Source: Eledone cirrhosa (taxonomy: Eukaryota). Taken from it: a stretch of DNA of 64,000 nt. Below the pieces are notes generated by a model, which did no database searches, was not told the DNA's origin, and was given only the letters and a program-made list of their open reading frames with translations. A program made the position numbers and the translations under genes. Location: NCBI GenBank assembly GCA_964016885.1, contig OZ024742.1, positions 354,454,001 to 354,518,000 on the forward strand, given 5' to 3'. Below are positions 19,225 through 62,620 of the stretch, piece by piece. Within the stretch, counting starts at the first letter, position 1, and each line of letters starts with the position of its first letter.

Positions 19225-19265
<41 letters not shown>

Positions 19266-19268
19266 TGT

Positions 19269-20090
19269 AAACGTACATACATATATGTATACAGACGTAC
19301 AGTAGTATGTATATATATATATACATACATGCACACATATATATATGTACTTATGGATTCACCGAACATTTATTATAATGCTCGGTGTGTTTGTAAACAA
19401 ACATTCCGAATTAAGCCGTACAGTATCTAGCAACAATCGTTGCTCATTTGTTCAACACTGACAAAGGAACGCTGTAATAGTTTCAAGCTTATTAGCTATC
19501 GTAAGCAACGTATACATTCCTGCCAGATGGTTGAACGTCTGAAAGTATATACTTTCCTTATGCATATTAACGGCTGACTAGCCTAATTTGCATATCGAGT
19601 GAGTCAATCGGCCGGGGTACCGAAAACGATAAACGGAAAAAAATGAAACGAAATTTCATTTCTCACTCTTAGTACGGCTGTTACTTAAATATAAGTATGT
19701 ATACGTACATACATATATGTATACAGAGGTACAGTAGTATGTTATTATATATACATACATGCACACATATATATATATGTACGTATGGATTCACCGAACA
19801 TTTATTATATTGCTCGGTCTGTTTGTAAATAACCATCCCGAATTAAGCCGTTCTGTGTGTCTAGCAACCATCTTTGCTCATTTGTTCAACACTGACAAAG
19901 GAAAACTGTACTAGTTTCAAGTTTATTAGCTATCGTCAGCAACGTTTACCTTCCTGCCAGATGGTTGAACGTCTGAAAGTATATACTTTCCTTATGCATA
20001 TTAACGACTAAGCAGCCTAATTTGCATATCGAGTGAGTTAATCGGCCGGGGTAACGAAAACGATACACGGAAAAAATGAAACGAAATTTA
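19269..20090 (-). repeat. ~434-bp tandem dimer with octamer and degenerate HHR, related to the 468-bp unit
   Basis: ctaatttgcat at 19583 and 20017; gaaacgaaattt motif. Minus strand aggtaaacgttg CTGACGA..GAAActagTA at 19902-19948. Confidence 0.75.
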
Positions 20091-20094
20091 AAGA

Positions 20095-29137: not shown

Positions 29138-29802
29138 CATATATATACATACACACATTCATACACACACACATACACACACACACACATATATATGTGT
29201 ATATACATCCATACACATACATATACACATACATACATACACACATATATATCAACATATCCATACATACACATAGATACACATACACAGACGTGCATAC
29301 ACACACACACACATATACATGCAAATATATATATATATATATATAGACATAAACAAATATATACATACATACACACACATACATATATATACACACGCAC
29401 ATATATATATATATATAGACATACATATATACATACACATGCATACATACATACACACAATCATGCGTATATACACACGTACATACATACACATACATAC
29501 ACACATATATGCACAAATATAGAAATATATACACACACCTACATACTCACACACAGAAATAAATATTAGAAAAAATATATAATAATAAAAATGAATATAA
29601 AGATTATTATAGTGTTGACAACGATACAGGCAACAAATAAATGAACAAACACACGTGGTAAGCAATACCCATAAATGCACGTACACATACATACGTAAAA
29701 ATAAATACATACACATACTCTCACACATAAATATACATATACAAATACATAAACACATACATACGCATACACATATACATACACACATACATATACATAT
29801 AT

Positions 29803-29891
<89 letters not shown>

Positions 29892-29903
29892 TACATACAC
29901 ATA

Positions 29904-32101
29904 AAATCTCATAAATATCCACCTAGAATTAAAGACATGGCCAACTTCGAATTAGACCTTGTTAATTTAATTAGTGATATCAAATTTCGTAAGTACAATA
30001 ATAATTTTCAAACTAAACTGTCTAACGATATTTCTAATTTTAAAAATTCTACAAATACCTTTGTTCTTTCCGTTAAAACTAAAAATCTCTTTGAAGTTAA
30101 TAGTATTGTGTATAACCAACTTTTAACTAATAGTATCACCAACAAATATCAATTAACTAATAATAATACCTACAATACTATTAATAAAGAAGCTAAAGAA
30201 CTAGCTAGTTCTTTAAAAATAAACAACCGGATTGAAAGCTTAGCAAAGTGTAAAGAATATATTACCCTTAAAGATCATAAATTAGACTTTACTAATCGAC
30301 CTAGGTGTAGACTTATTAACCCGGCTAAATGCGAAGTTGGCCTTGCAAGTAAAACAATCTTAAGAAAAATAATTCTCCAAATTAGAACTAAGACTGACCT
30401 ATCACAGTGGTTAAATACTTTCCTCTGTTATTTCTTGGTTTAATAATATACTAGGTAAAATAAGTGTAGATTTACCCAATTTGATGTTGTTGATTTTTAC
30501 CGCTCTATTACTGTTTCATTATTAACTAATGCCATAGAATTTGCAAGACCCTTCATTAATATTTCTAAATTAGAAGAAGGCATTATCTTTCATGATAGAA
30601 AGACTTTACTCTTTACTAATGAAAATATTTGGGTTAAAAAGTCAAACCCTGAAAACTCTGTTGATGTTGCAATGGGTTCATATGACAGTACAGATGCGTG
30701 TGACTTAGTAGGATTATTCCTTCCCCACATACTCAAAGAGAAATTTCTTTCCCATAATATCGGTTTATACCGTGATGACGGATTGGCAGTTTCTCATACC
30801 ACCAACGGCCATAATCTTGATAAATTCCGTAAATATTTAATCAATACTTTTGCTAATCTTAACCTTAAAATTACTATAGATACGAACCTTACCAATGTTA
30901 ACTTTCTTGACATTAATCTTGATCTACTTACCGCCTCTTTTAAACCTTATCATAAACCTAATGAAAATCTTAGATATATACACAAAGAGTCTTGCCATCC
31001 CCCTATAGATTTAAAAATCTTATTCCCAACATTAGCCGTAGGATTTCTACCATATCTTCGTCTATAGACATTTTTAATAAAGCGGCCTCTTATTATAATA
31101 AAGCCCTTAATAACAGCCTGTTTTACAGAACACATTTATTATTTACCTACTCCCCCTCCTAAAACTAACAACAATAATAGGAAAAGGAAAATTATTTGGT
31201 TTACACCCGTTCTCTCTAACTGTCATAACTAATGTAGGAAGGAAATCCATTGACCTCTTAGATAAACATTTTCCTCCTAATCATAGATATTATAAGATAT
31301 TTAATAGAAATGCTGTTAAGATCAGTTACTCTTCTTGCCCATGAATGAAGTCTAAGATCACTACTTCAAATCATACGAGAACAAATCCAGGATGCAGTTG
31401 CAGGAAGACGGATGAATGCCCATTACAGGGCAAATGTAACACCAAATCTGTTGTTTATGAGGCCAAAGTGACACCTTTAATCAACAACCAGCAGCCAGGA
31501 GTGAGCGATATGTTAGCATGACCCAGGAGAGGTTTAAAACCAGGTTTTATGCACACGTCGCTTCTTTTAAGCACTCCGATAAACGAACAACAACGGCCAT
31601 CGCAAGTAAGCTGTGGGAATTCAAGGATAAAAACATCCCGTACTCTATCGATTGGTCTATTTTAGACCATTCGAGGGAGTACCAAAGGGGCACAAAGAAT
31701 TGTTCTTTGTGTACCACAGAAAAATATAGGATTTTGCTAAACTTGAAAGCCACTTCTGCTTGCCTGAACTGAAAGGCCGAGATCTTCAGATGTTGTCCTC
31801 ATCTGACATCACATCTGATCTGTAACTGGGTTGACATTCCTATGATAACTCAACCACCTTGAACTCCTCTCCTGCTCTTTACTTCCACTACGGTTTTTTT
31901 ATCTGTTGAATCCACGTTCTGTACTCTCGTATGCTCTTTCTCCCTTATCTCCCTTTATATTTAAACCTTTTCCTATGTCATTTATTTCCCCCCCCCCTTG
32001 TCCCCCCTATACATTTTTGCCTTACCCTACACATACCGAATTCTTTTTATTTTTAGATATTAATTTTTTTTGTGTGTTGCGTATATGTATGTATATGTGT
32101 A

Positions 32102-32643: not shown

Positions 32644-35600
32644 TATAAACGTTAGAATATGTGTAATAAGGCCAAGACAATGCAGGTATGGACATAGAAA
32701 AAATAATGCAATAGTGAAAGATATTGATGTGAATTCGTCTTTCACCTTGAATTTATTTAAATGTCCTTAATTTTCGAGATAATATCTCTTCTTCGGAGGG
32801 AAGTAAGGGTCTCCAACCAGCGTCTTAAATCTCTAATCAAGCCATGCTGACCGGAAATAGTATAGAGTATCTGTTCTAACTTTAATATCAAAGAATTAAA
32901 ATTAGGTGGATAAAGAGTATTCTCCCTTTAAGAGGGGTTTGTTTATGTTATGTTTTTGTTTTTGTTTTATTTTTTTAAATTTTATATGCGTGCCTGTATA
33001 TGTGTGTGGGAGAATGCATGAAGGTGTAGGTATGTGGGTGTGTGTGTGTGAGTGTGGGAAGATAGGTCTAATCGTAAAAGTGGGGGGTAGTTGTTATCTG
33101 GTGTTAGAACTGGTTGTGTGTGTGTATGTGTGAGAGAGAATAAGTGGAGGTGTGCGCGTGCGTGTGTCTGGGGTGTGTAAAAATGGGGCTAGAGGCCCTA
33201 CCAGGTTATAAATTGGGTGTTGAGCTCTAGTCTATTATTGATTGGTGGATGTGTTCTATCTATAATAAGTGCTTCCTTAATTCTAAGGTTGCCGAGGTTT
33301 CTTTCCTTAGTTTCTATCCTAACTGTTATGTTTTTATCGGTGTTTTTGCATTTAACTAGGTGTTTCTTAAATGAGGAAGCGTTAGTATTGAGGTGTTCTT
33401 TCATTCTTATTATTTTATTCTTTTATTCTTGAAACAGAGACTGGACGACAGACTATGGCTCGACATAGAAACGAATTTCTCTCGGACTGCCTACCAACTG
33501 AAATGGATATCGACTCTCGACAACAACACCACGGAATCCACCACACCCAGATTCCCGATATACCAACTAGATCGCCCACTCTATCCACCGCCCGCCAACC
33601 GCGAGCTGGAAGAAAAACTCTCGAGACTAAAACATTCTGTATTTAACATCTTACGGAAACAGAAGAAGATGGCCGCTAACCTCTCCAGGACACAACAACT
33701 CGCCCTGAAGAACCTACGGAATAAGGAACTTATTTACTTACCATCCGACAAAGGTAAAGAGTTCTGCGTCATCTCTCAAGCCACATACAATAACCTAGCC
33801 TTCGAACACCTAAGCGATAGTGAACTGTACACAGTGATCCCGGACATGACCGCAGCCCAAATCGAAAAACAGACCAACTCCATTTGGTTCGATAACTGTA
33901 GGAGAAGACACCTCCCGAATAAAATTAAACTCAACTACACCACTAGAAATAGCAGACTGCCCACTTTCTACCACCTCATCAAGACCCACAAGAATAGCAC
34001 TAAGACGCATATAAGACCCATCGTCTCTAGCATAGAAGGACCCCTATACAAAATTTCCTGGCTCCTCTCCCACGTCCTCAAGCCTCTACTCTCTACCTTC
34101 CCCGGACATGTCAGTAGCTCCGACGAAGTTATACGTAGATTACACCAACTCCAGCCAGAACAACTTAAACTAAATAAATACGCTTTTAGCCTCAACGTTG
34201 TCTCCCTCTACACTACAGTCCCCGCTCATCCAGCTGTCGATTTATTGACGGACTGCGTGGTCGCAGAGAACACCCACAGCTACGGCCTCCACCCGACGGA
34301 CATACACCAGCTTTTGACCTTCACAGTAGACAACACGTACTTCACCTTCCACCACCACACATACAGACAGACAACATGATTACCCATGGGATCCAGCCTA
34401 TCGGGCCTGCTGGCCATCACTTACATGAACCAGCTAGAATGCCGAGCCCTCAACACCTGCCATTCCCATGCCTTCTTCACCCGATATGTAGATGACATAC
34501 TCATCCTTACATCATCCCGTGAGGAGGCAGAGAAAATATACACAACATTCTCCAGCATGGCCGCCAGTATAAAGTTCAGCATGGAACACCCCGATGTCCG
34601 CGGATCCCTATCCCTGCTGGACTTCCAACTCAGGTTAACAGAGGTAGGCAACATCCACACCTGCTTCTATAAAAAATCCGCCAGCAGGGACCTGTTCGTA
34701 CATTTCAGATCGGCCCTCCCACTCGGTGCCAAGTTCGGATACATAAAGAACGAACTGGCACGTATCAAGAACAAATGCACCGATGCCAGAGACCGAGACA
34801 CACACACCACACATTTCCTGGAAGTACTCAAACTGAACGGATACACGACATCCACCACAAACCGTGCCAGGAAGAACAGAGGACACCACACCCGAGGCAC
34901 TAACACTTGCTTCCAGAAGCTCCCACACTTCTGTGAAGAAACAACAACAGCCATCCGCAGAGCCATCAGACGAGAGGGTCTGGATATTCAACTGGCCCAC
35001 TCGGGTCCTTCTTTGCGCAGACGGCTGGCTAAGAGATACTCCACCAGACATGACAACTGCTGCAGACTAGCCAACTGCCCCATCAACGACACAGACCTAT
35101 GCCACCAGGCTTACGTAGTATACAGACTAGAGTGTGACAAATGCAACAACTTCTACGTAGGTAGCACCACCAGACCACTCCACATAAGAATAAAAGAACA
35201 CCTCAATACTAACGATTCCTCATTTAAGAAACACCTAGTTAAATGCAAAAACACCGATAAAAACATAACAGTTAGGATAGAAACTAAGGAAAGAAACCTC
35301 GGCAATCTTAGAATTAAGGAAGCACTTATTATAGATAGAACACATCCACCAATCAATAATAGACTAGAGCTCAACACCCAATTTATAACCTGATAGGGCC
35401 TCTAGCCCCATTTTTACACACCCCACACACACGCACGCGCACACCTCCACTTATTCTCTCTCACACATACACACACAAAACCAGTTCTAACACCAGATAA
35501 CACCTACACCCCACTTTTACGATTAGACCTATCTTCCCACACTCACACACACACATACACATACCTACACCTTCATGCATTCTCCCACACACATATACAG

Positions 35601-44319: not shown

Positions 44320-47300
44320 TGTAACCGAGACACAGTTTTATACTATTACAACTTGATGACAATCAACTAGTTATAAATATGTATATATATTTTATATATT
44401 TCGTTTCTGAATTTGTTTAGCAATTCTTTATCTGAAAACGTGTGTTGAAACCGATATTGTTATAGTTTGGGGGGTCATGTTGCCAAGCCAATAAGAAACA
44501 CACGCACCAGCTGCTTTCACTCCAATTTATTATAAATTAAATTATAAATTTAAAAATTTAAAAATTTCCGGTTGGTTGGTTGGTTCCACAACCGGACGGT
44601 TGTTCATATATTTTCAAAGTTATTTCGTCACACATTCTGTGACCTCTTCGGTGACTGAGGATTATTCTTTTTGTTTTTGCCTCTCCTTTCTTCTCCCCTA
44701 TGCCATTTAGTTTTTGTGTGTGTTGTGTGCTTAGTGTGCGCACGTGTTACATCCGGATGTCTGTGTGTGTTTTTATTGGTTTATTTATTTATTTATTTTC
44801 ATGTTACTGGTTGGTTGTTTGTTCTATGTGTGTGTGTTGTCATTTTGTCCTTAATTGTAAGTTGTGATGTTGCTATTCCATTCATGTTTTCTATTTAATT
44901 TTGGTTGGAGTTCATTTATGTTTATTGCCTCTGTGATTAGTCTTAACATTGCGTCTTTTCTGTGTGTAAATTTTATTTTTATTTATATGTTCTCTAATTT
45001 GCCCTTATGTTCTATTTTAACATGTTAGTGGAGTACTGATAAATCTTCTCCGATTTGAAGCTCGCGCCAGTGTTCATTAAATCGTTCTCCTATACTACAA
45101 GCTGTCTCACCTATGTACACTATATTCTTATCTTTACATTTTCCTTCAGCACATCTTATGCTGTATACTATGTTTCTAGTTTTACAGTTAATATGGGGGC
45201 TTAGTTTACATATTATGCATTTCCTATCTATTCAGGGAGGACTTTGAAAAGGGTATGTATTACTAATAAGTGTTTTATGGAGGTACCTGGTCTTTCTACT
45301 ATCTTAATATTTAGTTTAAGTTTATCTGGGGCCCTTCTAAATTTGTAAGTTAATTCACCTCTAGGGGTTGTATTGATGAACATTACACTCTGATATTTAA
45401 TGCTATCATACCATGAGTTTATTCTATTAATCTTATTCATAGTTCTTTCTATTATATTCCAGAATTTGCTCCTATACAAGGGGAAGGTCCCCTTTGTATC
45501 ATCATTTACCATTTTTTTCACATCTGGTTCTGTCTCCTCTATATATTACCTCAATGGCAAAGAAAACCCACACATAAATATGGAACTGGTGGACCAGAGA
45601 CATATGGACCATCAAAACCATGATGAACTAAAGAAAATGAATGCACGTGCGGTGGGGGCCAGTATAAAACTAACCCTTAAGGAACATATGTTCAAATTTA
45701 ATGGAAAAACATTTGCCCAAGAGGAGGTAGCAGCTGACACAGCTAAACTATTTATGGTATGGTGGTACAATAAACTTATAGAACAATTAGAAGACATCAG
45801 CCTCTTAACCCTGATAAAGTACTCTTGCTACGTTGATACTATAAACATCGTAGTAAAAACACCCCACTAGAGAACAGCCAGGAATTAGAGAAAAAACACC
45901 ATGGAAAGCATCCAGCAAATACCTAACTCCATACACCAGAGTATTAGAGTTACTATATACTACCCAAGCAAACACCCCAACCATCGTTTACCTGTACAAG
46001 AGAGGGAGCTCTGGTTAGAAACCATTAATATCAACAAACAAATCCTCCATTCCCATTATGCCAAACCCATGACTTCCAAATATCTGATCCACCGAAACTC
46101 AGCTGTTTCGGATCACACCGAAATAAACATACTGATTGCGGATTTGGTACGGTTGATGAGAAACGTGTCCCGCATGTGCAACCCCAAAGAACTAGAGAGG
46201 CACATACAACACTTCATCCACAGTATGCAGTTCTCTGGTTACAATCAGAGAGAAAAAATCAGAGTATATAGAGGAGGCAGAACCAAATGGGAAACAATGG
46301 TAAATAATGATACAAATGGGACCTGTCCCTTGAATAGGAGCACATTTTGGAATATAATAGAAAGAACTAGGAATAAGGTTAATAGAATAAACTCATCGTA
46401 TGATAGCAATAAATACCAGAGTGTAATGTTCATCAATACAACACCTGGAGGTGAATTAGCTTACAAATTTAGAAGGGCCCTACATAAATTTTAACTAAAT
46501 ATTAAAATACTAGAAAGACCAGGCACCTCCATAAACACACTTATTAGTAATACATACCTTTTTCAAAGACCTCCCTGTATAGATAAGAAATGTATAATCT
46601 GTAAATTAAGCGCCCATATTAACTGTAAAACTAGAAATGTAGTATATAGCATAAGATGTACTGAAAGACAATGTAAAGATAAGAATATAGTGTACATAGG
46701 TGAGACCGCTAGTAGAGTAGGAGAACGATTAAATGAACACTGGCGAGAGCTTCAAGATAGAAAAGAGTCATCAATACTCTACCAACATGTATAAATAGAA
46801 CATAAGGGCAAATTAGAGAACATATAAATAAAAATAAAACCTACACACAGAAAAGACGCAATGTTTAGACAAATCACAGAGGAAATAAACATAAATGAAC
46901 TCCAACCAAAATTAAATAGAAAACATGAATGGAATAGCAACACCACAACTTACAATTAAGGACAAAATGAAAACACACACACATAGAACAAACAACTAAC
47001 AAGAGTAACATGTAAATAAACAAATAAATAAACAAATAAAAACACACACAGACACCCAGATGTAACACGTGCGCAAACTAAGCACACAACACACAAAAAC
47101 AAAATGACGTTGGACAGAACAAAGAAGGAATAACAAAACAAAGAAAATACTCCCCAGTCACTGAAGAGGGCACACAATGTGTGACGAAAGAACTTTGACA
47201 ATATATGAACAACCATCCGAACAACCATCCAGTTGTGGAAACAACCAACCAACCGGAAATTTATAAATTTTTAAATTTATAATTTAATTTATAATAAATT

Positions 47301-54885: not shown

Positions 54886-55946
54886 TACACCTCATTTTTG
54901 AATGATACTAAATCATTACTAAAAAAAAAAACCCAGTCCAATTTATTTTAACAGAAAATCACGAAGGTGCCATGGATGTCTATGACTGAGATTTTAAGGA
55001 CAACTCGGTTAACAACTGTTAAATGTAGAGTAATGTGACGGAAATAAAATGTCTCATGACATGATTTTATATTAGTCTATACGAATATATTTTTTCAGAT
55101 TATTTTTTAAGTAATTTTATTTCTTTTCAAACTGTATTTCGAAATATATAGGTTTATCACTGATATGGGCTATTATTAACCGGCGAAATAGTTTTTATGC
55201 AAAGGTCTGCTTTAAAAAAATTCATCAGATTTCTTTACTAATTTAATCCATATCAAACATTAAACAGGTTTTATACCTAATATAGAATGGTATTTCCTAT
55301 AGAATCAAAGAAAATATAAACACGCCAGTTTTATGACTTTCTTTGATTTTATACGTTATAATTGCAAGCCATTAATACTTTGTCTAGTAAGTTAATTAAA
55401 TGATTTTTTTTCAGCAGATTTCAGCACTTTCCACATAATACATCAAGTACTAAGAATGTCTATTCACTAATAATTATATTTATTTTCTTCCGAACTAGTT
55501 TTAGTCTATCACTTATAGAGATATAGGAGATGAAATTATTTACAACAGACAGGGTCAAACTAAGTTCTCAATTGAGCTTTAATGCAGTTTCATCCACACA
55601 AACTTTTTAGAGTCTTAATAGTCAAGCGGCAATGATAAGATTTCGGAAGAAGAATTGAAAGCAAAAATATACGCAGCATACAAAAGGTGCAATTTATATA
55701 TATATATATATACATATATGTATAATTAAGTTAAAAATGTACATCTACATATGCATACTGAAATACTAGTGTGTATATGAATACACACACGTATACATAT
55801 GTAGGTGTAACAAGTCTTTCACTGGTTGCTTTACTGTGAGCAAACCCAGCTATTCTGTATGTAAACACACAGACAAACCGGTTTTTAGAATCATACTGGT
55901 TTTCGGGGGAACACCTTCCCTCTATTCTCCAGAAAGCCAGAAAAGG

Positions 55947-55991
55947 AATATTGAACTAGTTTCGTTGTTGTTACAACTCATCAGCAATATT
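55947..55991 (-). ncRNA. Minimal type I hammerhead; repeats at +468n (56415, 56883, 57351, 57819, 58287, 58755, 59223, 59691, 60159)
   Basis: aatattg CTGATGA gttgt aaca acaac GAAA c ta g T T caatatt. Stem III is the palindrome ACTAGT and the triplet is GUU. G12C in the copies at 57351 and 59223. Confidence 0.88.
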
Positions 55992-56076
55992 TACCTATCT
56001 ACCGGCCCTTCTGGAGAATTGTAAAAGCACATATCGTTATATGCTTTTTCTATGAAAATTAGTAGTGGGCAGACTA

Positions 56077-56084
56077 ATTTGCAT
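56077..56084 (-). promoter_or_regulatory. Octamer ATGCAAAT in the 468-bp unit, ~90 nt 5' of the HHR on the HHR-sense strand
   Basis: atttgcat recurs with the 468-bp period (atatgcat in units 5 and 9). The same motif and context are seen in the 434-bp family. Confidence 0.45.
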
Positions 56085-59000
56085 AGAGTGTGAGTACGCA
56101 CCGGTTCAGCGGAGACGATAAAAACAAATAACGAAACGAAATTAAATTTCGTTTCATTTGTAACTCACTTTTGTATGACTGACGCTTAAACAATTAAGTT
56201 AAAAATGTACATCTACATATGCATACTGAAATACTAGTGTGTATATGAATACACACACGTATACATATGTAGGTGTAACAAGTCTTTCACTGGTTGCTTT
56301 ACTGTGAGCAAACCCAGCTATTCTGTATGTAAACACACAGACAAACCGGTTTTTAGAGTCATACTGGTTTTCGGGGGAACACCTTCCCTCTATTCTCCAG
56401 AAAGCCAGACAAGGAATATTGAACTAGTTTCGTTGTTGTTACAACTCATCAGCAATATTTACCTATCTACCGGCCCTTCTGGAGAATTGTAAAAGCACAT
56501 ATCGTTATATGCTTATTCTATGAAAATTAGTAGTGGGCAGACTAATTTGCATAGAGTGTGAGTACGCACCGGTTCAGCGGAGACGATAAAAACAAATAAC
56601 GAAACGAAATTAAATTTCGTTTCATTTGTAACTCACTTTTGTATGACTGACGCTTAAACAATTAAGTTAAAAATGTACATCTACATATGCATACTGAAAT
56701 ACTAGTGTGTATATGAATACACACACGTATACATATGTAGGTGTAACAAGTCTTTCACTGGTTGCTTTACTGTGAGCAAACCCAGCTATTCTGTATGTAA
56801 ACACACAGACAAACCTGTTTTTAGAGTCATACTGGTTTTCGGGGGAACACCTTCCCTCTATTCTCCAGAAAGCCAGACAAGGAATATTGAACTAGTTTCG
56901 TTGTTGTTACAACTCATCAGCAATATTTACCTATCTACCGGCCCTTCTGGAGAATTGTAAAAGTACATATCGTTATATGCTTTTTCTATGAAAATTAGTA
57001 GTGGGCAGACTAATTTGCATAGAGTGTGAGTACGCACCGGTTCAGCGGAGACGATAAAAACAAATAACGAAACGAAATTAAATTTCGTTTCATTTGTAAC
57101 TCACTTTTGTATGACTGACGCTTAAACAATTAAGTTAAAAATGTACATCTACATATGCATACTGAAATACTAGTGTGTATATGAATACACACACGTATAC
57201 ATATGTAGGTGTAACAAGTCTTTCACTGGTTGCTTTACTGTGAGCAAACCCAGCTATTCTGTATGTAAACACACAGACAAACCTGTTTTTAGAGTCAAAC
57301 TGGTTTTCGGGGGAACACCTTCCCTCTATTTTCCAGAAAGCCAGACAAGGAATATTGAACTAGTTTGGTTGTTGTTACAACTCATCAGCAATATTTACCT
57401 ATCTACCGGCCCTTCTGGAGAATTGTAAAAGCACATATCGTTATATGCTTTTTCTATGAAAATTAGTAGTGGGCAGACTAATTTGCATAGAGTGTGAGTA
57501 CGCACCGGTTCAGCGGAGACGATAAAAACAAATAACGAAACGAAATTAAATTTCGTTTCATTTGTAACTCACTTTTGTATGACTGACGCTTAAACAATTA
57601 AGTTAAAAATGTACATCTACATATGCATACTGAAATACTAGTGTGTATATGAATACACCCACGTATACATATGTAGGTGTAACAAGTCTTTCACTGGTTG
57701 CTTTACTGTGAGCAAACCCAGCTATTCTGTATGTAAACACACAGACAAACCGGTTTTTAGAGTCATACTGGTTTTCGGGGGAACACCTTCCCTCTATTTT
57801 CCAGAAAGCCAGACAAGGAATATTGAACTAGTTTCGTTGTTGTTACAACTCATCAGCAATATTTACATATCTACCGGCCCGTCTGGAGAATTGTAAAAGC
57901 ACATATCGTTATATGCTTTTTCTATGAAAATTAGTAGTGGGCAGACTAATATGCATAGAGTGTGAGTACGCACCGGTTCAGCGGAGACGATAAAAACAAA
58001 TAACGAAACGAAATTAAATTTCGTTTCATTTGTAACTCAATTTTGTATGACTGACGCTTAAACAATTAAGTTAAAAATGTACATCTACATATGCATACTG
58101 AAATACTAGTGTGTATATGAATACACACACGTATACATATGTAGGTGTAACAAGTCTTTCACTGGTTGCTTTACTGTGAGCAAACCCAGCTATTCTGTAT
58201 GTAAACACACAGACAAACAGGTTTTTAGAGTCATACTGGTTTTCGGGGGAACACCTTCCCTTAATTCTTCAGAAAGCCAGACAAGGAATATTGAACTAGT
58301 TTCGTTGTTGTTACAACTCATCAGCAATATTTACCTATCTACCGGCCCTTCTGGAGAATTGTAAAAGCACATATCGTTATATGCTTATTCTATGAAAATT
58401 AGTAGTGGGCAGACTAATTTGCATAGAGTGTGAGTACGCACCGGTTCAGCGGAGACGATAAAAACAAATAACGAAACGAAATTAAATTTCGTTTCATTTG
58501 TAACTCACTTTTGTATGACTGACGCTTAAACAATTAAGTTAAAAATGTACATCTACATATGCATACTGAAATACTAGTGTGTATATGAATACACACACGT
58601 ATACATATGTAGGTGTAACAAGTCTTTCACTGGTTGCTTTACTGTGAGCAAACCCAGCTATTCTGTATGTAAACACACAGACAAACCTGTTTTTAGAGTC
58701 ATACTGGTTTTCGGGGGAACACCTTCCCTCTATTCTCCAGAAAGCCAGACAAGGAATATTGAACTAGTTTCGTTGTTGTTACAACTCATCAGCAATATTT
58801 ACCTATCTACCGGCCCTTCTGGAGAATTGTAAAAGTACATATCGTTATATGCTTTTTCTATGAAAATTAGTAGTGGGCAGACTAATTTGCATAGAGTGTG
58901 AGTACGCACCGGTTCAGCGGAGACGATAAAAACAAATAACGAAACGAAATTAAATTTCGTTTCATTTGTAACTCACTTTTGTATGACTGACGCTTAAACA

Positions 59001-60679
59001 ATTAAGTTAAAAATGTACATCTACATATGCATACTGAAATACTAGTGTGTATATGAATACACACACGTATACATATGTAGGTGTAACAAGTCTTTCACTG
59101 GTTGCTTTACTGTGAGCAAACCCAGCTATTCTGTATGTAAACACACAGACAAACCTGTTTTTAGAGTCAAACTGGTTTTCGGGGGAACACCTTCCCTCTA
59201 TTTTCCAGAAAGCCAGACAAGGAATATTGAACTAGTTTGGTTGTTGTTACAACTCATCAGCAATATTTACCTATCTACCGGCCCTTCTGGAGAATTGTAA
59301 AAGCACATATCGTTATATGCTTTTTCTATGAAAATTAGTAGTGGGCAGACTAATTTGCATAGAGTGTGAGTACGCACCGGTTCAGCGGAGACGATAAAAA
59401 CAAATAACGAAACGAAATTAAATTTCGTTTCATTTGTAACTCACTTTTGTATGACTGACGCTTAAACAATTAAGTTAAAAATGTACATCTACATATGCAT
59501 ACTGAAATACTAGTGTGTATATGAATACACCCACGTATACATATGTAGGTGTAACAAGTCTTTCACTGGTTGCTTTACTGTGAGCAAACCCAGCTATTCT
59601 GTATGTAAACACACAGACAAACCGGTTTTTAGAGTCATACTGGTTTTCGGGGGAACACCTTCCCTCTATTTTCCAGAAAGCCAGACAAGGAATATTGAAC
59701 TAGTTTCGTTGTTGTTACAACTCATCAGCAATATTTACATATCTACCGGCCCGTCTGGAGAATTGTAAAAGCACATATCGTTATATGCTTTTTCTATGAA
59801 AATTAGTAGTGGGCAGACTAATATGCATAGAGTGTGAGTACGCACCGGTTCAGCGGAGACGATAAAAACAAATAACGAAACGAAATTAAATTTCGTTTCA
59901 TTTGTAACTCAATTTTGTATGACTGACGCTTAAACAATTAAGTTAAAAATGTACATCTACATATGCATACTGAAATACTAGTGTGTATATGAATACACAC
60001 ACGTATACATATGTAGGTGTAACAAGTCTTTCACTGGTTGCTTTACTGTGAGCAAACCCAGCTATTCTGTATGTAAACACACAGACAAACCTGTTTTTAG
60101 AGTCATACTGGTTTTCGGGGGAACACCTTCCCTCTATTCTCCAGAAAGCCAGACAAGGAATATTGAACTAGTTTCGTTGTTGTTACAACTCATCAGCAAT
60201 ATTTGTTTTTATCGTCTCCGCTGAACCGGTGCGTACTCACACTCTATGCAAATTATTCTTGTCTGGCTTTCTGGAAAATAGAGGGAAGGTGTTCCCCCGA
60301 AAACCAGTATGATTCTAAAAACCGGTTTGTCTGTGTGTTTACATACAGAATAGCTGGGTTTGCTCACAGTAAAGCAACCAGTGAAAGACTTGTTACACCT
60401 ACATATGTATACGTGTGTGTATTCATATACACACTAGTATTTCAGTATGCATATGTAGATGTACATTTTTAACTTAATTGTTTAAGCGTCAGTCATACAA
60501 AAGTGAGTTACAAATGAAACGAAATTTAATTTCGTTTCGTTATTTGTTTTTATCGTCTCCGCTGAACCGGTGCGTACTCACACTCTATGCAAATTAGTCT
60601 GCCCACTACTAATTTTCATAGAAAAAGCATATAACGATATGTGCTTTTACAATTCTCCAGAAGGGCCGGTAGATAGGTA

Positions 60680-60724
60680 AATATTGCTGATGAGTTGTAA
60701 CAACAACGAAACTAGTTCAATATT
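60680..60724 (+). ncRNA. Minimal type I hammerhead (inverted arm)
   Basis: aatattgCTGATGAgttgtaacaacaacGAAActagTTcaatatt; predicted cleavage after 60717. Confidence 0.88.
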
Positions 60725-61147
60725 CATTGTCTGGCTTTGTGGAGAATAGAGGGAAGGTTTTCCCCCGAAAACCAGTATGACTCTAAAAACCGGTTTGTCT
60801 GTGTGTTTACATACAGAATAGCTGGGTTTGCTCACAGTAAATCAACCAGTGAAAGACTTGTTACACCTACATATGTATACGTGTGTGTATTCATATACAC
60901 ACTAGTATTTCAGTATGCATATGTAGATGTACATTTTTAACTTAATTGTTTAAGCGTCAGTCATACAAAAGTGAGTTACAAATGAAACGAAATTTAATTT
61001 CGTTTCGTTATTTGTTTTTATCGTCTCCGCTGAACCGGTGCGTACTCACACTCTATGCAAATTAGTCTGCCCACTACTAATTTTCATAGAAAAAGCATAT
61101 AACGATATGTGCTTTTACAATTCTCCAGAAGGGCCGGTAGATAGGTA

Positions 61148-61192
61148 AATATTGCTGATGAGTTGTAACAACAACGAAACTAGTTCAATATT
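61148..61192 (+). ncRNA. Minimal type I hammerhead (inverted arm)
   Basis: Identical to 60680-60724. Confidence 0.88.
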
Positions 61193-61496
61193 CCTTTTCT
61201 GGCTTTATGGAGAATAGAGGGAAGGTGTTCCCCCGAAAACCAGTATGATTCTAAAAACCGGTTTGTCTGTGTGTTTACATACAGAATAGCTGGGTTTGCT
61301 CACAGTAAAGCAACCAGTGAAAGACTTGTTACACCTACATATGTATACGTGTGTGTATTCATATACACGCTAGTATTTCAGTATGCATATGTAGATGTAC
61401 ATTTTTAACTTAATTGTTTAAGCGTCAGTCATACAAAAGTGAGTTACAAATGAAACGAAATTTAATTTCGTTATTTGTTTTCATATATATATATAT

Positions 61497-62620
61497 ATTG
61501 TTATACTTTGGGAGGGTCATGTTGCCAATAAGAAACATACGCACCAATTACATTCACTTCAATTTATTATAAATTAAATTTTAAATTTAGGAATATATAA
61601 ATTTCCGTTTGGTTGGTTGGTTGGTTTCACAACCAGACGATTGTTCATATATTATCAAAGTTTTTTCGTCACGCATTCTGTGACCTCTTCAGTGACTGGG
61701 ATTATTTTCGATGTTTTTGTGCCTCTCCTTTGTTCTGCTCTATGCCATCTTGTTTTTGTGTGTGTTGCGTGCTTAGTTTGCGCATGTGTTACATCCGGGT
61801 GTCTGTGTGTGTTTATATGTGTTTATTTATTTGTTTATTTACTTATTACTAGTTTGTTGTTTGTTCTATGTGTGTGTGTGTTTTCATTTTATCCTTAATT
61901 GTAAGTTTTGATGTTGCTAATCCATTCATGTTTTCGATTTAATTTTGTTTGGAGTTCATTTATGTTTATTGCCTCTGTGATTTGTCTAAACATTGCGTCT
62001 TTTCTGTGTGTAGGTTCTATTTTTATTTCTATGTTCTCTAATTTACCCTTATGTTCTATTTTAGCATGTTGGTGGGGTACAGATGATTCTTTACTATCTT
62101 GAAACACTCGCCAGTGTTCATTTATCCGTTCCCACATACTACGAACTGTCTCACCTATGTGCACTATATTCTTATCTCTACATTGTCCTTCAGTACATCT
62201 TATGCTATATACTACATTTCTAGCTTTACACTTAATATGGAGGCTTAATTTACAGATTATACATTTCTTATCAATACAGGGAGGTCTTTGAAAAGGGTTT
62301 GTATTGCTAATAATATGATGGCGTAGGACAGAACAAAGGAGAGGCACAAAACAAAGAAAAAATCCCTAGTCACTGAAGAGGTCACAAAATGTGTGACGAA
62401 AGAACTTTGACAATATATGAACTATCGTCTGGTGGTGGAACCAACCAACCTGAAATTCATAAATTCCTAAATTTAAAATTTAATTTATAATAAATTGAAG
62501 TGAAAGCATCTGGTGCGTGTGTTTCTTATTGGCAACATGACCCTCCCAAAGTATAACAATATCGGTTTCAACACGCAGTCTCAGATAAAGTATCTTGCTA
62601 AACAAATTCACATACGATAT
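61497..62620 (-). mobile_element. PLE family B, truncated: GIY-YIG plus pLTR on minus (61497-62313) and a short inverted pLTR on plus (62316-62620)
   Basis: NTNPFQRPPCIDKKCIICK..NVVYSIRC..HIGETVRSMWERINEH..FRQITEAINI. Homologous to 44460-47365. Confidence 0.88.
62369..62411 (+). ncRNA. Minimal hammerhead in the family-B pLTR (best copy)
   Basis: gtca CTGAAGA g gtcaca aaatg tgtgac GAAA gaac T T tgac. Confidence 0.72.

What the first reader, a model, noticed from the sequence alone, without database searches (positions are those of the whole stretch)
55724..61481. 468-bp self-cleaving satellite: candidate cephalopod non-LTR retrozyme (circular RNA) array
Seen: a homogeneous non-coding 468-bp array with one minimal type I HHR per unit. 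The HHR has a 7-bp stem I (extendable by agg/cct across a bulge), CUGAUGA, a 5-bp stem II, GAAA, an ACUAGU palindromic stem III and a GUU site. There are 12 copies, 10 intact. Known: tandem HHR repeats in newt satellite 2, cricket, schistosome and cnidarian non-LTR retrozymes yield unit-length linear and circular RNAs, and palindromic stem III allows dimeric cleavage. Inference: this array produces ~468-nt monomer/circular RNAs that are retrotransposed by PLE RT. The unit is longer than the ~170-400 nt I recall for animal retrozymes, and I know of no characterised cephalopod family.
Basis: partly seen in the sequence, partly recalled or inferred. Interest (0 to 1): 0.92.

Follow-up and report, generated by a model that had tools for sequence, protein, structure and literature searches.

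The report
Ribozyme repeat spread by Penelope machinery
This 468-base self-cutting-RNA repeat is one insertion of a jumping, non-coding element (a retrozyme), and its copies carry the insertion marks of Penelope-like retrotransposons and look as if each was copied round and round from a single RNA circle.

Summary
The array and its hammerheads are real: 12 motifs, 10 intact, predicted cut after 60717. It is not a plain satellite. It is one two-armed insertion (9.6 units on -, 2.6 on +, back to back) in (TA)n.

The family has at least 2,190 dispersed insertions. Their outer ends lie at two fixed points inside the unit, about 230/235 and 304 nt past the cut site. 27 of 29 loci with two outer ends have one of each. 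This is the 'tail', inverted-copy and microsatellite signature of Penelope-like element (PLE) integration. A 429-bp sister family uses the homologous points.

Arms run through the cut site 224 times with no excess of stops, and 348 of 351 junctions keep exact length. 133 variants are fixed across both arms of a locus. This favours rolling-circle reverse transcription of one unit.

Cleavage, expression and circles are untested, and no helper PLE was identified. Verdict: a new member of the non-LTR retrozymes, probably octopod, and unusually informative about PLE mechanism.

The parts
55695..55723 (.). (TA)n-rich tract, left remnant of the insertion target
55724..60204 (-). Long arm, 9.6 units, HHR-sense on the minus strand. 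Its outer end at 55724 is the family's 'short' fixed end (q230; q1 = first base after the predicted cut).
55947..55991 (-). First of 10 minus-strand type I HHRs (CUGA begins at 55984, 56452, 56920, 57388*, 57856, 58324, 58792, 59260*, 59728, 60196; * = G12>C, core broken). Predicted cut between 55954 and 55953.
56398..58218 (.). 1,821-bp block repeated without a difference at 58270-60090 (four-unit local duplication after insertion, or assembly artefact)
60200..60259 (.). Inversion junction: 5-bp microhomology at 60200-60204, then a 60-nt piece (q292-351) joined to q4 of the next unit
60205..61484 (+). Short arm, 2.6 units, HHR-sense on the plus strand. Its outer end at about 61481-61484 is the family's 'long' fixed end (q304).
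60680..60724 (+). Type I HHR, predicted cut after 60717
60718..61185 (+). One cut-to-cut unit (468 nt), the predicted monomer or circle; strongly folded (z -8.0 linear)
   Evidence: an internal minus-strand unit folded as a circle gave z -10.6
61148..61192 (+). Type I HHR, predicted cut after 61185
61416..61484 (+). 'Tail' between the two fixed ends (q231-304; this copy lacks 5 nt). It lies in the most conserved part of the unit and is the inferred RT recognition and initiation region.
61483..61498 (.). (TA)n tract, right remnant of the target, shared with the end of a neighbouring coding PLE

Best explanation
A non-autonomous, non-coding retroelement of the non-LTR retrozyme kind, mobilised in trans by a Penelope-like element (PLE) protein. 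Step 1 (inferred): tandem copies are transcribed. Neighbouring hammerheads pair through the palindromic ACUAGU helix III and cut the RNA into 467-468-nt units, which a host ligase closes into circles. A lone circle has one HHR whose helix III cannot close properly and should be stable. Step 2 (the DNA pattern is shown, the enzyme is inferred): a PLE RT-endonuclease cuts both strands of a (TA)n tract and primes two cDNAs, one at q304 and one at q230/235, most likely on the same RNA molecule. Step 3 (inferred from read-through and haplotypes): each cDNA runs through the ribozyme site and round the unit, from a few nt to more than 10 rounds. Step 4 (shown): the two 5'-truncated products join back to back at short overlaps. 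The window's array is one such insertion. It has since aged to about 1.3% difference between neighbouring units and gained a four-unit local duplication. PLE-type mobilisation alone I put at about 0.9; a single-unit circle as the usual template at about 0.7.
For: Dispersal: 2,190 exact long-end+(TA) junctions, 1,015 exact short-end(235)+(TA) junctions and 7,451 internal read-throughs of the long-end site (reversed controls 0, 1, 0). Fixed ends: of 39 distinct loci picked by unit similarity, 29 had two outer ends called and 27 of these pair one long with one short end. The exceptions are L057 (two abutting insertions) and L058 (broken left arm). TA runs flank the right end in 36 of 39 and the left in 31 of 39. 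Of 79 loci picked by the long end, 61 have a second, inverted arm from the short end; 56 of those 61 junctions lie within -9 to +11 nt of a direct join. This matches the PLE architecture in 10.1101/2021.04.23.441226 and the two internal RT start sites with extension of both strands shown in vitro in PMC11167929. A coding PLE family next door has the same two-end pattern in (TA)n (11 long ends, 11 short, 1 other in 20 loci; tail 54-56 nt). q221-303 is the most conserved region among 7 subfamilies (3 of 83 positions vary against 87 of 384; P 1e-5), and a 429-bp sister family ends at the homologous points. Continuous template: 102 of 140 arms cross the cut site, 224 crossings, with 4 stops within 5 nt against 2.8 expected; 348 of 351 junctions keep exact length. 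Single-unit template: in 73 two-armed loci, 133 variants are fixed in all covering copies of both arms (78 distinct, 55 seen in one locus only) and 311 are singletons. L089 has 18 identical full units and differs by 5 from the nearest sampled locus. RNA-level selection: in 22 units from 7 subfamilies 99.3% of cells pair, 5 pairs change on both sides (one in HHR stem II), and G.U variants outnumber A.C variants 32 to 5 on the HHR-sense strand. The core and stem II are intact in 215 of 229 full units.
Against: No RNA evidence of any kind, and cleavage is untested. Only 1 of 9 Xenopus retrozyme dimers cleaved in vitro. For the one PLE reconstituted, HHR cleavage was not needed and unprocessed RNA was the main substrate. 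Six variants are shared only by the terminal units of both arms (window, L044, L100, L111, L137, L148). About 12 more are shared by a subset of copies on both arms, after setting aside 42 from the compound locus L057 and 7 from L143, whose consensus rests on one unit. So some templates were heterogeneous multimers. The direct test for purifying selection on the 11 core positions was uninformative (1 of 116 fixed against 2 of 212 singleton variants, P 1.0). No parent-daughter pair was found. No coding PLE with homology to the unit was found in 41 loci of two PLE families, and no PLE ORF ran directly into a 5'-truncated arm. Assembly polishing could exaggerate within-array identity, although several arrays keep many singletons. 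The structure was predicted from the same sequences on which pairs were counted.
Confidence: 0.7

Rival explanations
1. Same PLE-driven insertion, but the template is the uncleaved linear multimer transcribed from a source array. The HHR cuts rarely or is a relic, and homogeneous arrays arise by DNA-level expansion of one unit in source loci.
For: In vitro a PLE uses unprocessed RNA and does not need HHR cleavage. Six terminal-only shared variants show multi-unit templates. DNA-level block duplications exist (window; alternating units in L048). Read-through of the cut site is predicted equally well.
Against: It needs dozens of independent single-unit expansions in unsampled source loci to give 55 locus-private variants fixed on both arms. 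The DNA-level duplications seen are multi-unit blocks on one arm that keep heterogeneity. The HHR core is unchanged across 7 subfamilies with a compensated stem II, and the ACUAGU core is kept in the sister family.
Confidence: 0.2
2. The template is the cleaved linear monomer whose two ends are held together by the long stem I (a nicked circle). The RT jumps across the nick each round, so no ligation is needed.
For: The 5' 30 nt and q400-436 form a long conserved helix that brings the ends together. Stops at q1-26 are slightly raised (12 against 7.5 expected, P 0.07). It also predicts locus-fixed haplotypes.
Against: No extra bases at the cut site in 351 junctions; the three length variants are two extra A in the GAAA run and one missing base just past the site. 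No excess of stops at the site itself (4 against 2.8). That template jumps usually leave scars is recalled knowledge of non-LTR RTs, not tested here.
Confidence: 0.07
3. An ordinary satellite or DNA-mobilised repeat, amplified by unequal crossing-over or rolling-circle DNA replication, in which the hammerhead is incidental.
For: A four-unit exact duplication in the window; arrays of about 30 units exist.
Against: Fixed 3' ends with variable 5' truncation, paired inverted arms and (TA)n targeting at thousands of sites; strand-specific G.U tolerance; the same pattern in an RT-coding PLE.
Confidence: 0.03

Closest known systems
Metazoan non-LTR retrozymes (Cervera & de la Pena 2020, PMC7229834): coral about 225-245 bp, mussel about 350-390 bp, axolotl 330/350 bp
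   Same: Non-coding tandem units with one type I HHR each, low GC, a strongly self-paired predicted monomer, thousands of copies, PLEs in the same genome. The weak helix III (one pair capped by a palindromic tetraloop) matches the description of axolotl HHR_Amex1, which cleaves well only as a dimer.
   Different: The unit is 467-468 nt. The HHR is of the dimer-dependent kind although most invertebrate ones are described as monomer-competent. The two-armed insertion with two fixed internal ends in (TA)n is not described in the sections I read. A review states that animal retrozymes show no conserved motif pointing to their helper (PMC7761336). Expression and circles were shown for those families and are untested here.
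Penelope-like elements: insertion architecture (Craig et al. 2021, 10.1101/2021.04.23.441226) and mechanism (Frangieh et al. 2024, PMC11167929)
   Same: Partial tandems, 5' truncation, an inverted truncated copy, a 'tail' on one end only, a microsatellite target, two internal RT start sites, both strands extended, an HHR upstream of the start sites.
   Different: No RT or GIY-YIG ORF. The tail is about 70 nt rather than 30-40. The HHR is canonical rather than minimal. Up to about 30 whole units per insertion. In the genome the two start sites come almost always one per arm, whereas in vitro no strand preference was seen.
Vertebrate non-LTR retrozymes proposed to derive from PLE pLTRs (Li, Clavereau & Pollet 2026, bioRxiv 10.64898/2026.07.22.740005)
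   Same: Same proposed helper class; the unit length lies within their 51-972 bp range.
   Different: Their evidence is co-occurrence and pLTR homology. The words 'tail', 'initiation' and 'junction' do not occur in that text and no mollusc is mentioned. They propose local tandem amplification after a PLE insertion, while the arrays here look inserted ready-made. No homologous pLTR was found here.

Membership tests
Metazoan non-LTR retrozyme | Non-coding tandem repeats with one type I HHR per unit | tested here: met
   core and stem II intact in 215 of 229 full units
Metazoan non-LTR retrozyme | Small unit, GC below 45% | tested here: met
   GC 0.357-0.368 across the array; 463-480 bp, above the 170-400 nt of PMC7229834 but within 51-972 bp of the 2026 preprint
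Metazoan non-LTR retrozyme | Highly self-paired monomer RNA | tested here: met
   z -8.0 linear, -10.6 circular with 40 shuffles; pairing kept across subfamilies
Metazoan non-LTR retrozyme | Dispersed, recently mobile copies | tested here: met
   at least 2,190 insertions; arrays of 18 identical units
Metazoan non-LTR retrozyme | HHR self-cleavage in vitro | not testable with these tools
   needs transcription assays
Metazoan non-LTR retrozyme | Abundant unit-length linear and circular RNA | not testable with these tools
   needs RNA reads or northern blots from the host; see Tried and rejected
Canonical metazoan type I HHR (PMC4209133) | Helix I about 6 bp, helix II about 4 bp, helix III 1-2 bp with a small palindromic loop, conserved core | tested here: met
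   all pairs of the double-hammerhead form are valid and the ACUAGU duplex is -4.8 kcal/mol
Minimal PLE-type HHR (PMC4209133) | Helix II 7-8 bp, helix I 4-5 bp, unpaired base before stem II | tested here: not met
   helix II is 4-5 bp, helix I is 6-7 bp with an extension, no extra base
Rfam hammerhead clan CL00010 | Score at or above a family's gathering threshold | tested here: not met
   best match HH9 36.5 bits against 52; no gathering-level hit in the window
PLE-mobilised insertion | Fixed 3' ends at two sites (tail on one end only), variable 5' truncation | tested here: met
PLE-mobilised insertion | Inverted 5'-truncated copy next to the tandem run | tested here: met
   61 of 79 loci picked by the long end
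PLE-mobilised insertion | Microsatellite or AT-rich target | tested here: met
   TA run at 36 of 39 right and 31 of 39 left ends in loci not selected for TA
Autonomous PLE | RT plus GIY-YIG ORF within the element | tested here: not met
   no such ORF in the unit; tblastn of 800-bp flanks found only abutting separate PLE fragments
Derivative of a named PLE pLTR | Sequence homology to the pLTR of a coding PLE in the same genome | tested here: inconclusive
   41 loci of two PLE families gave only nested retrozyme copies and low-complexity matches; other PLE families were not examined

The most novel reading that the evidence does not exclude
These insertions are a genome-wide in vivo record that a dimeric PLE enzyme primes both strands of a (TA)n target from two fixed sites on one covalently closed, ribozyme-made RNA circle and copies it by rolling-circle reverse transcription in both directions. 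That would explain the tandem, inverted and tailed structure of PLE insertions in general. It would also define a portable cis-element of about 80 nt (q221-303) that makes an RNA circle a PLE substrate.
Probability: 0.45. Interest if true: 0.8.

Novelty: new member of a known kind. Interest (0 to 1): 0.6.

Why it matters
Two questions are stated as open in the papers read: which machinery moves animal retrozymes (PMC7229834, PMC7761336), and how PLEs make tandem and inverted insertions, including whether HHR-made circles are the template (proposed in PMC4209133; not needed in vitro in PMC11167929).

This family ties the two together with sequence evidence. It has no ORF, thousands of young insertions, two mapped RT start sites conserved in a divergent sister family, and single-unit haplotypes. 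A 468-nt RNA with known start sites is a ready substrate for comparing circular, nicked and multimeric templates with a PLE protein. It is not a new class of element.

Tried and rejected
1. Expression: no RNA holder listed. Four runs of unrecorded kind were laid as contigs; contigs cannot show ends, strand or level, so nothing is drawn from them.

2. Footprint of cleavage as 5' truncations at the cut site: not significant (q1-26: 12 against 7.5, P 0.07; within 5 nt: 4 against 2.8, P 0.31). A few arms were cut off by the edge of the fetched stretch, and the first internal rearrangement was counted as the stop.

3. Selection on the HHR core from fixed versus singleton variants: no power. 0 of 11 core positions differ among subfamilies against 90 of 467 overall, which alone is not significant.

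4. Parent-daughter pairs among sampled loci: none.

5. Helper by homology. Neptune-like loci (L151-L169) and Hydra-type loci (L184-L205) show no pLTR homology. A 10-nt match between the Hydra-type pLTR and the short end looked promising, but Hydra-type copies do not end there (0 matches): rejected. A GAAACGAAAT word shared with the Neptune-like tail lies at a different position, and the tails share no fold: set aside.

6. 'Minimal HHR' and 'unusually long unit': rejected.

7. Literature: searches found no cephalopod retrozyme and no analysis of retrozyme insertion ends. The library lacks most subscription papers. I did not see the supplements of PMC7229834, PMC4209133, PMC11167929 or the 2026 preprint, which may list such families, and Repbase/Dfam were not available.

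8. Earlier scan notes: nothing by sequence, by the first word set or for this genome.
Full report
OBSERVATION. The window holds a 468-bp repeat at 55724-60204 (9.6 copies) and 60254-61472 (2.6 copies). Each unit carries a type I hammerhead; 10 of 12 have an intact core and two have G12>C. Rfam's best match is Hammerhead_HH9 at 36.5 bits, E 1.6e-7, under its gathering score. Helix III is ACUAGU. In one copy it can form only one or two pairs; two copies can form a 6-bp helix, and all pairs of that double form are valid. By the definition in PMC4209133 (passages) this is the canonical metazoan form, and it matches the text description of the dimer-dependent axolotl HHR_Amex1 (PMC7229834 section 15). 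I number the unit from the predicted cut (q1 = 60718); most other copies are 467 bp, so positions past 110 shift by one.

The two runs point away from each other and meet at a 5-bp microhomology (60200-60204). A 60-nt piece follows, then a jump to q4. The outer ends, q230 on the left and q304 on the right, both sit in (TA)n. A 1,821-bp block is duplicated exactly, so part of the length is secondary.

GENOME-WIDE PATTERN. The genome is 3.0 Gb. A search with one unit gave 763 candidates, of which 40 were scored. I fetched 39 of those loci and added the window (set 1). Exact patterns count 2,190 long ends followed by TA, 1,015 short ends (the 235 variant only) followed by TA, 7,451 internal copies of the long-end site and 4,948 copies of this HHR variant. 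I then fetched 80 of the first 100 listed long ends on contig C1, skipping two already in set 1 (set 2). L045 and L104 were dropped as segmental duplicates.

In set 1, chosen by unit similarity and not by ends, 29 of 39 loci have two outer ends and 27 of them pair one long with one short end. L057 is two abutting insertions and L058 is broken. In set 2, 61 of 79 loci have a second inverted arm from the short end, 5 to more than 4,300 nt long. 5' ends fall all round the unit.

Craig et al. (10.1101/2021.04.23.441226; passages) describe this layout for PLEs: partial tandems, an inverted truncated copy, a tail on one end, microsatellite targets. Frangieh et al. (PMC11167929; parts 1-3 of 4) show that the tail is the distance between two internal RT start sites and that both target strands are cut and extended. 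A coding PLE beside the array, Neptune-like by its C-terminal endonuclease-type region and cysteine-rich linker (my reading of the sequence, not a tree), has the same two-end pattern with a 54-56-nt tail.

CIS-ELEMENT. Full units fall into 7 clusters, down to about 85% identity with the window's unit. Only 3 of 83 positions vary in q221-303, against 87 of the other 384 (P 1e-5). A 429-bp sister family (65% identity over 243 nt) keeps the ACUAGU hammerhead with different stems I and II. It ends at q274/275 and q216-221, which align with q304 and q230-235 (12 loci examined). A relaxed motif covering both families occurs 40,624 times, control 16.

TEMPLATE. Of 140 arms, 102 cross the cut site, 224 times in all, with no excess of stops there. 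Across 118 loci, 348 of 351 junctions have the exact length and none has added bases at the site. The template is therefore continuous across the cut: a circle or an uncleaved multimer.

Variant patterns favour one unit copied repeatedly. In 73 two-armed loci, at positions covered by three or more copies on both arms, 133 substitutions are in every copy, 311 in one copy, 37 in a subset on one arm, 61 in a subset on both arms (42 from L057, 7 from L143) and 6 in the two terminal units only. 55 of 78 distinct fixed variants are seen in one locus only. L089 (18 units), L102 (6) and L146 (5) are internally identical yet differ by 5-6 from the nearest sampled locus. The six terminal-only cases, one of them this window, cut the other way: they imply that some templates were multimers, and also that both arms began in the same unit of the same RNA.

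RNA STRUCTURE. The unit folds far better than shuffles (z -8.0 linear; -10.6 circular). In 22 units chosen to span the clusters, 99.3% of cells pair and five pairs change on both sides, including stem II; 0 of 500 shuffles reach the covariation score, though relatedness inflates this. G.U variants outnumber A.C variants 32 to 5 on the HHR strand, which points to selection on that strand as RNA. The structure came from the same sequences, so this leans in its favour.

HELPER. Not identified. The genome has abundant Neptune-like PLE pieces (32,134 candidates; longest open frame among the 150 scored 613 aa) and Hydra-type pieces (49,909 candidates; open frames of 711-718 aa in four loci). Each has its own hammerhead-like motif and neither is homologous to the unit. 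The Neptune-like tail and the sister family's tail are both about 56 nt, a weak hint only.

HOST. The Neptune-like protein's best hit is from Octopus vulgaris (67%). This is consistent with an octopod but is not a direct test.

MECHANISM: SHOWN AND INFERRED. Shown in DNA: dispersal, two fixed ends, one per arm, (TA)n targets, read-through of the cut site, locus-fixed haplotypes, conserved fold. Inferred: transcription, dimeric cleavage, ligation (a protein ligase circularised such monomers in PMC7229834; passages), PLE priming on a circle. The strongest rival is an uncleaved multimer as template. It is backed by PMC11167929, by only 1 of 9 dimers cleaving in the 2026 preprint (parts 1-3 of 5 read), and by the six terminal-only variants.

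COMPARISON AND NOVELTY. It meets every testable feature of a non-LTR retrozyme and of a PLE-made insertion. It fails 'minimal HHR', the Rfam threshold and 'autonomous PLE'. PMC7229834 (sections 14, 15, 17 and passages) and PMC7761336 (passages) propose PLE helpers and circle templates but report no end analysis in what I read. Six searches found no cephalopod case; supplements were not seen. PMC10886601 (passages) was not relevant. Two unchecked earlier scan notes report PLE-type tandem insertions of ribozyme-free units in other genomes; if right, concatemers need not depend on a hammerhead.

VERDICT. A real, young, non-autonomous retrozyme family of a known kind. Its value lies in the mechanistic record in its insertions, not in the single array. 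Interest 0.6.

Noticed in passing
window 19229-20091 (-); L054 3997-7001; L172-L183: Sister 429-bp retrozyme-like family with the same ACUAGU helix III, a U.U at the base of stem II and a GUA site. It has the same two-end architecture; 2,008 first-look candidates.
   Followed up: partly
window 61494-62620: Coding Neptune-like PLE remnant sharing the (TA)n tract with the array: ORF piece 61895-62365 (-), hammerhead-like motifs at 61692 (-) and 62373 (+), one short and one long end. Another motif of this family is at 47161, with ORF pieces at 45394-46494.
   Followed up: partly
window 29619-31772 and 28352; L200-L203: Hydra-type PLE (assigned from the motif description, not from a tree). A young subfamily has open frames of 711-718 aa and its own hammerhead-like motif in a low-complexity pLTR; a candidate active helper.
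   Followed up: partly
window 33375-35393: Broken PLE with RVT_1 and GIY-YIG Pfam hits, Penelope/Poseidon-like by my reading.
   Followed up: no
window 19120 (+), 42294 (+); L153, L165, L200, L202, L205: Further hammerhead-like families with long stem II and AT-palindromic helix III, so the genome holds several unrelated HHR-bearing repeats.
   Followed up: no
unit q250-275: Arm stops cluster at the 13-bp hairpin of the tail (19 against 8.2; best of 467 windows scanned, uncorrected P 6e-4), perhaps from RT stalling or fold-back.
   Followed up: no
L048 3139-6446: Units alternate between two haplotypes, one with a 13-nt insertion, on one arm only: a two-unit duplication or a dimeric template.
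   Followed up: no
L044/L045 and L103/L104: Whole insertions duplicated with their flanks, 78 kb and 18 kb apart (segmental duplication or haplotype duplication in the assembly).
   Followed up: no
G000:C1:5738085-5752751: A single two-armed insertion about 14.7 kb long with 31 hammerheads on one arm; only 3.5 kb fetched (L073).
   Followed up: partly
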